Positions 3,001 to 6,000 of a DNA stretch of 64,000 nucleotides are shown piece after piece; position 1 is the first letter of the stretch; every line of letters begins with the position of its first letter. The stretch is from Escherichia coli O127:H6 str. E2348/69 (lineage in GTDB: Bacteria; Pseudomonadota; Gammaproteobacteria; Enterobacterales; Enterobacteriaceae). The position numbers are program-made. Where the stretch lies: NCBI RefSeq assembly GCF_000026545.1, contig NC_011601.1; one strand, 5' to 3'.

Positions 3001-6000
3001 CGAAGCAATATACCAGCCGCCCGGAGAACGCCACGAATACAGGATGAATGACGGTAGCGCGGTGGTTGAGTTCCCCGGATATCCGGGGGCTTCCCGGTGG
3101 CGGTTCTATGACAGTGTGGGACGTCGGATTATTAAAAGAACCGTGCACAACAATATGAAGGCTGCCGTAGAACGTCATAAGAGAAGGTTTAACTGCAAAT
3201 GAAAATTGAATTTTATGACCATGGGGTCACCGCAACTATCACTATTTCTTGTTGGTTCTGGGAGTTCCACCGTTACTTCAGAGTTGTAGATGCTGCGCTG
3301 TTTGTTGCACCGGGAGCGTTACATCACAGTGGAATCGGTATTGTTATGAACACTGTCATCAGCGGTAAAACGGTCCCGATGTTGCGGGCGTTTAAAGTGG
3401 CAAAACAGGAGGCTGGCAATGGTCATTGATAAAACGATAACGATAGATGTAGCCATGAATACAGGTCTGGCGCTTATCGGTTATGGCTATATCACTTTTA
3501 TGTCATTCAGGTGGTTGATTTCTTCGCTCTTTAAGCAGCGTGAAAAACATCGTTGTAAAGACAAGCGCGCGAAGGCGCTAAATGCGTTTAATGACGCTTT
3601 TGATATTGACCATATGCAACAGGGCGACCCCGCACGCGTAATTACCCGGGGAGATATTGTAATTCTTGTGTACCGGAATGAAAAAAATGAACAGGAGACA
3701 ACCAGTGAGTCAGCAAACCAGAATAAGCGATAAGAGTCTGACCAGACTGATTGCCGATGCGGACAAGGTGCTGGAGCGGAACTCCCCCGTTGCCGATGAG
3801 GAATGGTGGCAGGATTTCCGGGCTGCAATGCTGGAACTTCAGGAACGTCGTCGGGAGGTGTTGAAGTGAGTGAATTAAAGTGTCGAATTAATGGCAATCA
3901 GATAGAACCGTGTGCGGTACTGGCAAAAGCACTCGAATATGGAAATCCAGCCTTTAAGAGTAAAGGCATATTTATCCCGGAACGCGTGAATATAAACACC
4001 GGCGAGCCAGGCTTAGACATTGCTCAAATTCACTCCGGCCAATATGTCGGTCGTGGTGTTGCCATGTGTTTTTGCCCGTTCTGTGGTGAAAGTCTGAAAA
4101 CATGGAAAAAGGAGGCAACCAGTGAGCGAGATTAACTATCAGGCACTGCGTGAGGTGGCAGAGGCCGCGAAGGGGGATACGACGTGGCAGAACCTACAGG
4201 CTTTTCATGCTGCGGCTACGCCGGAGGTTGTGCAGGCGTTGCTGGATGAAAACGAAAGACTGTGTCGCGATCTGATAGCTCGTAATGGTGAGATTGAAGG
4301 GCTTCGGGAGTGGGCAGAAGAACTGGAGGCACGGGAGGTGGCTTTGCCAGTAGCGTCATGCATTGTTGAAGATGGATGCATGTGTGTTGATGGGTTCAGT
4401 GAGTATGTAGGTCACTCGCTACCTGATGGAATGCATGAGCTTTATGCTGCCCCGCCAGCGTCGGTAGTGCCGGAAGGACTAGTTAAAGCAGTGCGTTTCT
4501 ATGAACAGGTAAAGTGTGAGAATCCGCCAGTCGAAACCGGAGCATGGAAAGACGCGGTTGACTGGGTACTCAACGAGGCTTGCCAGGCTGTAAATATTGA
4601 CGCCAAAGGAGGTGCGTAATGCGTGTAGCGTTTATCGGTTTATTACCATACCCGACTCGTTTTTGGGCTTCTGCGCTAATTGCAAAGCCACATGCCCTGA
4701 TGGCTGACAGCATCATCCCGGCACAAAAGCGCCATACCGGTATTGCTGCTGCACGACGCGAAGCAAAGAAACGCAGGAGAGCAAAATGATGAAAAACCGT
4801 AAGGCAAGACTGCTGATAGCAAAGCCAGGGCAACTTATCCGTATCTCAAATCGACTTGTTGTTCACTATAGATATCTTGGTTTTAGGGAGTGGTCCTCTA
4901 TTCGTTTTTACGGTGTCTGGCGAAACAGAAGCGCGACACAAAACCGCTGGAAGAATCACACTAACGCAAAGTAATTAAATAATAACCAATAGCAGACCAA
5001 AAAGTATTTTTTGGTCTGCCAAAAGTGATGTTTTGGTCATTATGAAGATTGAACAAATCGGAATGGCAGCTTTCAGGCAACAGGCTGAAAGCGGTGGCGT
5101 GGATGAGTTCGTCGTGCAGCGGTTCGGTGGTGTGTATCATCTATTCGCTGTGAATCGCCGCGCCGGGGTGTCCTATTTTCTACAGGAACGTCGTGGCGAT
5201 TACAAGACATGGCTGTCTCTTGACCGTGCCGCTGCGTTCTTGTCAGGGATTGGCGTTTCACGTTTTACCGTGCGTTTTGAGGATAACAAACATGCTGAAA
5301 AAGATGATCGGGGCCATTAAAGCCGGTCAGGCGTATCTGGGGTGGGATGATGCCCTTTATCGCCAGACGCTGGCCCGCCTGACCGGTAAAACCAGCACCA
5401 CACGCTGCAATCTCGATGAACTGCGCATCATCCGGGAATACATGCACGAACAGGGATTCCCGCGCAAGGCACCCGCTGGTAAAGGTCGCCGCCCTCGTGT
5501 TGCAATGAGCAGAAAATCAGTATTATCCAAAATTGAAGCGTTGCTGGCTGATGCCGGTCGTTCCTGGGCGTATGCAGAAGGACTGGCATCTCACATGTAT
5601 AAGCAACATGTGATCGAATGGCTGACGGATGAACAGCTTTTTGGAGTGATGGTGGCGCTGGTTAAAGATTCAAGAAGGAGAAATCAATGATGAAAAAATG
5701 GTTGTTTTGTTTAGTAGGGGTTATTTTCTCTTGTTCTGTGCTGGCACAGACAGAGGAACAGGCGCAAAAGGAACTGAAACGTTATCAGGATATGAAGCCA
5801 TTGGCTGAACAGATGCTTCGGGAAAGTGGAAAACTTTATTACGCTATGCCAGAAGCTGCATCGCAGTATCAGCAGGGAAATATTGAAGAGTGGAAGAATA
5901 TCAAAAAAGGACTAAAACAACTGGATGAACAGGCCAGTAAACTGGGGGACGACCCGCTTGATCCTGTGTATGGTTCCTGCATAAAAATGAAAAACCAGCT

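What the first reader, a model, noticed from the sequence alone, without database searches (positions are those of the whole stretch)
4122..4619. Ead/Ea22-like gene in a Mu-like early region
The N-terminus closely resembles the Ea22/Ead family found in lambdoid early regions, which suggests module exchange between lambdoid and Mu-like phages. Function is unknown.
Basis: partly seen in the sequence, partly recalled or inferred. Interest (0 to 1): 0.3.

Follow-up and report, generated by a model that had tools for sequence, protein, structure and literature searches.

The report
Ea22-family gene in Mu-like prophage
The flagged ORF is a genuine, already-annotated member of the phage Ead/Ea22 family, carried as swappable cargo in the early operon of a Mu-like prophage of E. 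coli E2348/69; it is an ordinary case of phage gene mosaicism.

Summary
Confirmed and ordinary. Window 4122-4619 (+) is an intact 165-aa gene with a GTG start and an AAGGAGG ribosome-binding site. It matches Pfam Ead_Ea22 (PF13935) at 59 bits against a cutoff of 27, and lambda Ea22 at 46% identity over residues 1-61. The window is identical to E. coli O127:H6 E2348/69, where RefSeq already calls this gene 'ead/Ea22-like family protein'. It lies in the early operon (MuB to GemA) of a ~35.7-kb Mu-like prophage that splits eutC. Module exchange is supported. Only about 20 of 57 related Mu-like backbones carry such a gene. Mu itself and a Klebsiella relative have none. The flanks share 86-95% nucleotide identity with lambdoid, P22-like and P1-like phages. 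The interior is swapped between two conserved junctions. Only residues 1-74 (helices plus a short coiled coil) are Ea22-like. The acidic C-terminal part is unrelated to lambda's domain and has no structural match. By-product: the conserved 'K/R-G-E' tail of Ea22 proteins appears to be the Shine-Dalgarno sequence of an overlapping downstream gene, here a basic 56-aa ORF that is unannotated in phage 933W. The pro-lysogenic function is inferred only by homology.

The parts
4122..4619 (+). ead/Ea22-like gene, 165 aa, identical to RefSeq WP_001289972.1
   Evidence: ORF list and sequence; Pfam PF13935 at 59 bits; RefSeq annotation of the identical E2348/69 locus
4109..4115 (+). Shine-Dalgarno AAGGAGG, 6 nt before the GTG start
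   Evidence: read from the sequence; a GTG start is conserved in lambda, phiV10, L005 and 933W
4107..4163 (+). conserved 5' junction: RBS, GTG and the first 14 codons (MSEINYQALREVAE)
   Evidence: the only 5' segment shared at DNA level with a different ead allele (L005, 91%) and with phiV10 (4121-4163, 86%)
4122..4343 (+). residues 1-74: Ea22-type N-terminal segment plus a short coiled coil (helices 6-18, 22-31, 34-74)
   Evidence: AF2 pLDDT 82-93; Pfam match covers residues 2-96; 9 of 12 a/d heptad positions are hydrophobic in the best register
4344..4472 (+). residues 75-117: low-confidence, possibly disordered linker / sub-module (PVASCIVEDG..DGF.EYVGHSLPDG.H.LYAAPP) that occurs independently in other proteins
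   Evidence: pLDDT below 50; hits to query positions 3-50 only; mosaic breakpoints near residues 68-76 and 118-120
4473..4616 (+). residues 118-165: small acidic two-helix C-terminal module (phrog_26213 / phrog_660), unrelated to the lambda Ea22 CTD
   Evidence: PHROG hits; helices 118-133 and 141-162 at pLDDT 70-84; found separately in Stx, Klebsiella and Actinobacillus phages; no lambda-CTD similarity
4604..4621 (+). conserved 3' junction: AAAGGAGG (codons K-G-G) = Shine-Dalgarno of the next gene, with a TAATG stop/start overlap
   Evidence: sequence; the right-hand breakpoint of every comparison falls at 4604-4606; the same junction occurs in L004, L005, phiV10 and 933W, and as a remnant in lambda; 80 of 80 viral loci have the overlap
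4619..4789 (+). translationally coupled 56-aa basic ORF (pI 12), phrog_13831, the usual downstream partner of ead/Ea22 genes
   Evidence: phrog_13831 at E = 8e-35; RefSeq WP_001261588.1; 66 of 80 loci have an Ea22-like gene immediately upstream; pI
3776..4605 (+). segment replaced by unrelated DNA in the closest Mu-like relative that lacks ead (L004): the variable cargo slot
   Evidence: blastn blocks 2271-3775 (96.7%) and 4606-4959 / 4975-6731 (84% / 97.8%) with nothing between them; L004 annotation
3866..4135 (+). upstream 89-aa ORF (phrog_4030, CxxC motif) overlapping the ead start by 14 nt; part of the swapped segment
   Evidence: 87.7% nt identity of window 3865-4125 to phage PH444

Best explanation
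Window 4122-4619 encodes a real member of the Ead/Ea22 family (PF13935). It is carried as non-core, swappable cargo in the rightward early operon of a ~35.7-kb Mu-like transposable prophage inserted in eutC of EPEC E2348/69. The protein is a mosaic of three parts. Residues 1-74 are an Ea22-type N-terminal segment plus a ~40-residue coiled coil. Residues 75-117 are a low-confidence linker. [quoted passage not shown] The gene reached the Mu-like backbone, and keeps changing alleles, by homologous recombination at two short conserved junctions shared with lambdoid, P22-like and P1-like phages. The 5' junction is the RBS, the GTG start and the first 14 codons. The 3' junction is the last few codons, which double as the Shine-Dalgarno sequence of an overlapping small basic ORF. 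How it works is inferred by homology with lambda and phi24B Ea22 and is not shown here. On that inference it is made early after infection or induction and oligomerises through the coiled coil. It then presents its acidic C-terminal module to an unidentified host or phage partner, which slows lytic development and favours host survival and lysogeny. Shown here: gene, family, architecture, context, mosaic breakpoints, junction structure. Inferred: early expression, oligomerisation, pro-lysogenic effect (my probability for that part is about 0.35).
For: Family: Pfam 59 bits against 27; lambda Ea22 46% over 61 aa, E = 2e-11; 1,621 homologues; RefSeq name. Architecture: AF2 helices at pLDDT 82-93 for residues 1-74; heptad 9/12; C-terminal hairpin at pLDDT 70-84; net charge about -18 with an acidic CTD, matching the report that all Ea22 CTDs are acidic (PMC10834534). 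Context: MuA, MuB, GemA, Mor and Mu portal; eutC split in two; all neighbouring genes co-directional, tightly packed or overlapping, with the first strong terminator at 6174-6194. Cargo status: about 20 of 57 related backbones carry the gene; absent from Mu and the Klebsiella relative. Junctions: breakpoints at 4107/4121-4163 and 4604-4606; identical junction sequences in L005, phiV10, 933W and lambda; 80 of 80 loci show the overlap. Function of relatives: deleting ea22 shortens latency, raises burst size and lowers host survival in both lambda and phi24B. It lowers lysogenisation in lambda at all m.o.i., but in phi24B only at m.o.i. 5 and 10, and raises it at m.o.i. 1 (PMC7093339). Full-length lambda Ea22 is tetrameric and its CTD is dimeric (PMC10834534).
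Against: Similarity to characterised Ea22 proteins is limited to roughly the first 61-96 residues. The lambda CTD alone does not reproduce the phenotype (PMC10834534), so it is unclear which part carries the function. Even for lambda the mechanism and the partner are unknown. The coiled coil here is shorter than in lambda. Mu-like phages decide lysogeny through a different circuit (repressor/Ner and transposition), so a 'pro-lysogenic' role may not transfer. There are no expression or phenotype data for this gene. Structure searches gave nothing. The 80 junction loci are close relatives and are not independent samples.
Confidence: 0.8

Rival explanations
1. The shared N-terminus is mainly a recombination handle and oligomerisation scaffold. 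The biological activity lies in the swappable C-terminal module, so it differs from lambda Ea22. It could, for example, be an acidic decoy or DNA-mimic type anti-defence or host-modulating factor of the kind found in phage early accessory regions.
For: The CTD is unrelated to the lambda CTD. The C-terminal sub-modules occur on many different N-termini and in unrelated phages. The protein is very acidic, net charge about -18. The first 14 codons are conserved at DNA level across otherwise diverged alleles. The published work stresses that CTDs differ among variants.
Against: Lambda and phi24B Ea22, whose CTDs differ strongly, give broadly similar phenotypes (PMC7093339). There is no PADLOC match and no structural match to any known decoy or anti-defence fold. 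The coiled-coil region is conserved at protein level beyond the DNA-identical junction (Pfam match to residue 96).
Confidence: 0.3
2. Ea22 and the overlapping small basic ORF form a functional two-gene unit. The acidic oligomer would bind, chaperone or neutralise the basic 56-aa protein, and the pair moves as one cassette.
For: Stop/start overlap in 80 of 80 loci, with 66 of 80 having an Ea22-like upstream gene. Opposite charges: pI 4.3 against 12. The pair is found together in Mu-like, P22-like, Stx and P1-like elements.
Against: Lambda has lost the small ORF yet its Ea22 still gives a phenotype. In L004 the small ORF follows an unrelated gene. In P22 the gene after EaD is a different one, eaI. 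The linkage may therefore only reflect the shared junction.
Confidence: 0.15
3. The gene is a functionless passenger or decaying remnant in a cryptic prophage.
For: It is dispensable for the backbone, since about 37 of 57 relatives lack it. No function is known.
Against: The ORF is intact, with a strong RBS and coupling on both sides. Homologues 96-98% identical occur in several other contigs. The prophage appears complete, from repressor to tail fibres.
Confidence: 0.05

Closest known systems
Bacteriophage lambda Ea22 (NP_040612, exo-xis region)
   Same: GTG start and an N-terminus of MSEIN-QALRE-AE. 46% identity over residues 1-61. The same Pfam family. The same layout of short N-terminal segment, coiled coil and separate acidic C-terminal part. 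Early, non-essential accessory position. The tail nucleotides AAAGGAG are shared.
   Different: The C-terminal domain is unrelated: lambda has an alpha-beta dimer solved by NMR, whereas here a short two-helix hairpin is predicted. The coiled coil is shorter here. The host element is a transposable Mu-like phage, not a lambdoid one. Lambda has lost the overlapping small downstream ORF.
Ea22 variants of Stx phages (933W p09, phi24B; V1-V3 of Goddard et al. 2024)
   Same: The same N-terminal start and the same mosaic principle. 933W Ea22 has the same 3' junction and the same downstream small ORF. The C-terminal sub-module of the window protein is found in many Stx1a/Stx2a phages at about 86% aa identity.
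   Different: The Stx variants carry an extra ~63-residue insert after the N-terminus and other C-terminal domains (DUF551 in V2). The window protein is much shorter: 165 aa against 257 aa for the 933W protein translated here.
phiV10 p48 / P22 EaD (P22-like phages)
   Same: phiV10 p48 shares both junctions at 86-90% nucleotide identity and has the same downstream ORF, p49. P22 EaD shares the MS-I--QALRE start and a KGE tail that holds the RBS of the next gene.
   Different: The interiors are unrelated. The pairwise match to P22 EaD is only marginal (E about 0.02-0.04). The gene downstream of P22 EaD is eaI, not the phrog_13831 ORF.
Semi-essential early region of phage Mu (kil to gemA)
   Same: Same position and logic: a run of small, non-essential accessory genes between the B transposition gene and gemA/mor, transcribed with the early operon.
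   Different: Mu has no Ea22-like gene there. The backbone here is only distantly related to Mu. Its GemA is closest to 35-kb Klebsiella and Pseudomonas transposable phages at 61-62% aa identity.

Membership tests
Ead/Ea22 family (Pfam PF13935 / InterPro IPR025153) | Score above the Pfam gathering threshold for Ead_Ea22 | tested here: met
   59 bits against a cutoff of 27, E = 1e-15, residues 2-96 on profile positions 1-113 of 139
Ead/Ea22 family (Pfam PF13935 / InterPro IPR025153) | Direct similarity to the founding member lambda Ea22 | tested here: met
   46% identity over residues 1-61, E = 2e-11
Ead/Ea22 family (Pfam PF13935 / InterPro IPR025153) | Direct similarity to the founding member P22 EaD | tested here: inconclusive
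   Pairwise BLASTP E = 0.02-0.04; the N-terminal MS-I--QALRE motif is shared
Ead/Ea22 family (Pfam PF13935 / InterPro IPR025153) | Three-part layout: short N-terminal segment, central coiled coil, separate variable acidic C-terminal part | tested here: met
   AF2 helices 6-18, 22-31 and 34-74 at pLDDT 82-93; low-confidence linker; C-terminal helical hairpin; heptad 9/12; CTD charge about -9
Ead/Ea22 family (Pfam PF13935 / InterPro IPR025153) | Terminal K/R-G-E tail (Dydecka et al. 2020) | tested here: met
   Variant K-G-G-A encoded by AAAGGAGGTGCG. 91 of 120 homologues carry a tail of this kind. The nucleotides are the downstream gene's RBS
Ead/Ea22 family (Pfam PF13935 / InterPro IPR025153) | Tetrameric full-length protein | not testable with these tools
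   Needs SEC-MALS or similar; only a monomer model could be made
Orthologue of lambda ea22 in the strict sense | Located between exo and xis in the pL operon of a lambdoid phage | tested here: not met
   Lies between the MuB-type ATPase and GemA of a Mu-like prophage
Orthologue of lambda ea22 in the strict sense | Lambda-type C-terminal domain (b1-b2-a1-b3-b4-a2 dimer, HRYYGVGG loop) | tested here: not met
   No alignment beyond residue 61; no lambda-CTD hits among related loci; the predicted CTD is helical
Orthologue of lambda ea22 in the strict sense | Pro-lysogenic phenotype on deletion | not testable with these tools
   Known only for lambda and phi24B (PMC7093339)
Mu-like transposable phage (context of the gene) | Mu-type transposase and AAA+ MuB, GemA, Mor, Mu-type portal, in Mu gene order | tested here: met
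   RefSeq annotation of the locus; Pfam GemA, Mor, Portal_Mu, DUF3164 and DUF1804
Mu-like transposable phage (context of the gene) | Insertion within a gene rather than at a tRNA or att site | tested here: met
   eutC is split into two pseudogene halves flanking ~35.7 kb. A short repeat ACACAC(T) is seen at both junctions, but the exact ends were not resolved

The most novel reading that the evidence does not exclude
Ea22 genes and the small basic ORF that overlaps their stop codon form a mobile two-gene cassette. It hops between lambdoid, P22-like, P1-like and Mu-like phages by recombination at two junctions of about 20-60 bp. The acidic Ea22 oligomer works together with, or neutralises, the basic 51-58-aa protein, which has been overlooked (unannotated in 933W). 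This would give the first handle on the unknown Ea22 mechanism. The narrower claim is much more likely (about 0.8) but is only a modest insight: that the 'K/R-G-E motif of unknown significance' is simply the downstream gene's Shine-Dalgarno sequence and a recombination boundary.
Probability: 0.15. Interest if true: 0.45.

Novelty: already known. Interest (0 to 1): 0.15.

Why it matters
It matters little by itself. The family assignment is already in RefSeq, and mosaic exchange of early accessory genes among temperate phages is textbook. [quoted passage not shown] First, Ea22-type cassettes are not confined to lambdoid phages; they also occupy the accessory slot of Mu-like prophages in pathogenic E. 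coli. Second, the conserved C-terminal K/R-G-E tail is best read as the ribosome-binding site of a translationally coupled downstream gene, and that gene is unannotated in 933W. Published ea22 deletions may therefore have polar effects on it.

Tried and rejected
NCBIfam gave no family. A PDB sequence search gave only chance hits with E of 0.5 or more. Foldseek of the full model against the PDB (best E about 1) and of the C-terminal model against BFVD (best E 3.5) gave no usable neighbour. The models are low-confidence outside residues 1-74 and 118-162, so a fold-based function was abandoned. PADLOC gave no hit for the gene or three neighbours, so no known defence system is involved. PHROG hits were all 'unknown function'. 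A literature search for Ea22-like together with Mu-like found one unrelated paper. The E2348/69 genome paper (PMC2612414) is not held, so the published name of this prophage was not retrieved. The phi24B record NC_027984 is not in the phage collection. A search for exact TG...CA ends with a 5-bp target duplication found no clean candidate. The idea that the upstream 89-aa ORF corresponds to lambda Orf73 (TraR-like) was dropped, because Pfam found nothing in it.
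Full report
OBSERVATION. Window 4122-4619 (+) is a 165-aa ORF starting at GTG, with AAGGAGG six bases upstream. 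Pfam Ead_Ea22 (PF13935) matches residues 2-96 at E = 1e-15, 59 bits against a gathering cutoff of 27. Lambda Ea22, taken from NC_001416, aligns at 46% identity over residues 1-61 with E = 2e-11. P22 EaD matches only marginally in a pairwise comparison (E 0.02-0.04) but shares the MS-I--QALRE start. A database search returned 1,621 homologues, most of them named ead/Ea22-like.

SOURCE AND CONTEXT. The region is 100% identical to E. coli O127:H6 E2348/69, where RefSeq already names this gene 'ead/Ea22-like family protein' (WP_001289972.1). The gene lies in a rightward block: repressor, HTH protein, Mu transposase, AAA ATPase (MuB-like, whose 3' end is window 28-267), DUF3164, DUF2786, DUF4752, small ORFs, ead, small ORFs, gp16/GemA, a 158-aa ORF, Mor, holins, GH108 endolysin, DUF1804, a DNA methyltransferase, TerL and the Mu-type portal. 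The element is about 35.7 kb. It has a contractile-tail baseplate module and opposed tail-fibre assembly genes, and it splits eutC into two pseudogene halves. Its right end is near window 31,660. All genes around ead are co-directional and tightly packed or overlapping. The first strong intrinsic terminator on the + strand is at 6174-6194. The gene is therefore most likely part of the long early transcript; this is inferred, not measured. GemA is closest to 35-kb transposable phages of Klebsiella and Pseudomonas (61-62% aa) and more distant from the B3/D3112/DMS3 group (about 36%). 'Mu-like' is thus right in the broad sense.

ANATOMY OF THE PROTEIN. AlphaFold2 with a 64-sequence alignment gives confident helices at residues 6-18, 22-31 and 34-74 (pLDDT 82-93). 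Confidence is low for residues 75-114. A second model of residues 72-165, using 85 diverse relatives, resolves only a two-helix hairpin at about residues 118-162 (pLDDT 70-84). In the best heptad register, 9 of 12 a/d positions in residues 34-75 are hydrophobic. The whole protein is very acidic, with pI 4.3 and net charge about -18, and the C-terminal part carries about -9. This matches the published description of Ea22 proteins: a short N-terminal segment, a coiled coil and a separate acidic C-terminal part that differs between variants (PMC10834534). The C-terminal part here is not the lambda domain. It matches phrog_26213 and phrog_660, both of unknown function. It splits further into two sub-modules, residues ~74-121 and ~106-163, each found independently on many different proteins. 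They occur in Stx1a/Stx2a phages, podoviruses, and Klebsiella and Actinobacillus phages. No structural neighbour, solved relative, NCBIfam model or defence-system model was found.

MODULE EXCHANGE.

- Presence/absence. Of about 57 closely related backbones (DUF2786 to Mor, 90-98% nt identity) in complete E. coli genomes, about 20 carry an ead/Ea22-like gene and about 37 do not.
- Breakpoints. The relative L004 is 96.7% identical up to window 3775 and resumes at 4606, with unrelated genes in between. L005 carries a different 209-aa ead allele and shares only 4107-4162 (91%) and 4604-4959 (94%). The P22-like phage phiV10 shares 4121-4163 (86%) and 4604-4820 (89.5%).
- Absence from other transposable phages. 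A profile of the family's N-terminal region recovers phiV10 p48 (E = 4e-20), lambda Ea22 (7e-16) and the L005 allele (7e-8). It finds nothing in Mu 1-11 kb, in the Klebsiella transposable phage early region, or in L004.
- Distribution. Of 80 IMG/VR contigs holding the linked downstream ORF, only 5 have Mu-like markers. The DUF4752 gene also accompanies ead in many of the non-Mu contigs.

The family is overwhelmingly found in lambdoid and P22-like phages, so transfer into the Mu-like lineage is the simpler direction. That direction is inferred.

THE JUNCTIONS (by-product). The 3' end of the gene reads AAA GGA GGT GCG TAA TG. The stop overlaps the ATG of a 56-aa, very basic ORF (4619-4789; phrog_13831; pI 12). 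The codons K-G-G spell the Shine-Dalgarno sequence of that ORF.

- The same arrangement occurs in L005 and in phiV10 (p48/p49), and in L004, where the upstream gene is unrelated yet still ends ...CAC AAG GAG AAT ACG TAATG.
- It also occurs in 933W. There Ea22 ends ...AAGIRIKRGE* and is followed by a 51-aa homologue of the small ORF that is not annotated.
- In lambda the nucleotides GGCATTCGCATCAAAGGAG remain, but only a 5-codon remnant follows.
- In P22, EaD ends ...KVKGE* (AAGGGGGAATGAGCATG) just before a different gene, eaI.
- In all 80 IMG/VR loci the stop/start overlap is present and a GGAG core (a purine-rich GAGG variant in one locus) is kept, while the encoded residues vary: K to N or I, G to D, E to A.
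- 91 of 120 family proteins, chosen by protein similarity, end with such a tail.

Dydecka et al. reported this K/R-G-E tail as a conserved motif of unknown significance (PMC7093339). The simplest explanation is that it is the RBS of a translationally coupled downstream gene and also a recombination boundary. One caveat applies: the 80 loci are close relatives, so they are not independent evidence. The concept of short conserved boundary sequences at gene junctions in lambdoid phages is established from my own knowledge of the HK620/lambdoid literature; I did not retrieve a paper for it.

HOW IT PROBABLY WORKS. No mechanism is known for any member of the family. Deleting ea22 in lambda and phi24B shortens the latent period, raises burst size and lowers host survival. 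Its effect on lysogenisation differs between the two. In lambda it falls at all m.o.i. tested. In phi24B it rises at m.o.i. 1 and falls at m.o.i. 5 and 10. Full-length lambda Ea22 is tetrameric, its CTD is dimeric, and the CTD alone is inactive. By homology of the N-terminal and coiled-coil part, I infer that the window protein is an early, non-essential oligomeric scaffold. It would display an acidic C-terminal module to an unidentified partner and temper lytic development. I give that functional inference about 0.35, because the similarity covers only the scaffold part and because Mu-like phages use a different lysogeny circuit. The main rival is that the activity lies in the swappable C-terminal module and is something else, for example a decoy or anti-defence role (0.3). 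A partner relationship with the small basic ORF is possible (0.15), but lambda, L004 and P22 weaken it. A dead passenger is unlikely (0.05).

COMPARISON AND NOVELTY. The gene is a member of the Pfam/InterPro Ead/Ea22 family: threshold, direct lambda match, architecture and tail are all met. It is not an orthologue of lambda ea22 in the strict sense, because both the exo-xis location and the lambda-type CTD were tested and not met. The assignment is already in public annotation, and the mosaic nature of ea22 genes is published. The finding is therefore already known. Its presence in Mu-like prophages is a minor extension that I did not find discussed.

VERDICT. The biology is ordinary, and interest is 0.15. 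The most useful by-products are the Shine-Dalgarno/junction explanation of the Ea22 tail and the overlooked small downstream ORF.

Noticed in passing
window 4619-4789 (+); 933W record NC_000924 about 3920-4103 (-) = L088: A conserved, very basic 51-58-aa ORF (phrog_13831, pI 12, hydrophobic N-terminal half, RRxAKKRRRAK tail) overlaps the stop codon of ead/Ea22 genes by 1 nt in 80 of 80 viral loci. It is annotated in E2348/69 and phiV10 but not in 933W.
   Followed up: yes
window 4604-4621; lambda L002 ~1045-1065 (-); P22 L092 ~300-320 (-): The 'K/R-G-E' C-terminal tail reported for all Ea22 proteins is encoded by AAAGGAG-type nucleotides, which form the Shine-Dalgarno sequence of the next gene. 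The same ending occurs on an unrelated upstream gene in L004 (…HKENT*). A remnant persists in lambda, where the downstream ORF is lost.
   Followed up: yes
window 4786-4974 (+): A 62-aa ORF (MMKNRKARLLIAK…QNRWKNHTNAK) is not annotated in RefSeq for E2348/69. It lies inside the block 4604-4959 that is conserved with L004 and L005. It resembles the reading frame after the small ORF in 933W (MKNRKAKILLV…QNRWKNHLRTKGE), which again ends in KGE.
   Followed up: partly
window 4990-5021: A 14-bp-stem hairpin (TAGCAGACCAAAAAGTATTTTTTGGTCTGCCA) sits in the intergenic gap next to the 4959/4975 similarity breakpoint. It was reported as terminator-like on the minus strand. Its role is unknown.
   Followed up: no
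window 6174-6234: A strong intrinsic terminator (9-bp stem, 7 GC pairs, T-run) at 6174-6194 is followed by the best sigma-70-like promoter match in the region (6207-6234, 10/12), just upstream of the Mor gene (6264-6731). Mor therefore seems to have its own promoter after the end of the early operon, unlike in Mu.
   Followed up: no
window 3419-3733 (+) and loci L015-L083: The DUF4752 gene upstream of ead also occurs near ead/small-ORF pairs in many non-Mu viral contigs. The unit shared with lambdoid phages may therefore be larger than the ead gene alone.
   Followed up: partly
window 3866-4135 (+): The 89-aa ORF overlapping the ead start (phrog_4030, CFCPFCGES motif suggesting a small zinc ribbon) shares 87.7% nt identity over window 3865-4125 with the 115-kb phage PH444. 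It has no Pfam family.
   Followed up: partly
about 4 kb upstream of the window start (L001 ~1546), to window ~31,660: The Mu-like prophage (~35.7 kb) interrupts eutC. Both junctions carry ACACAC(T), and TTCTGGGCGGAG-type inverted repeats lie 15-40 bp inside each end. The exact ends and the target duplication were not resolved.
   Followed up: partly
window ~34,775-36,148: An IS4-like ISEc13 transposase interrupts eutA, so the eut operon of E2348/69 is disrupted twice (prophage in eutC, IS in eutA).
   Followed up: no
window 9379-10119 (+): A DNA methyltransferase gene sits between the DUF1804 (Mu gp27-like) gene and TerL in the late region of the prophage.
   Followed up: no
window 1955-2173 (-): A single minus-strand 72-aa ORF (annotated hypothetical, WP_000564495.1) lies inside the otherwise rightward early block, reminiscent of Mu gp15.
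   Followed up: no
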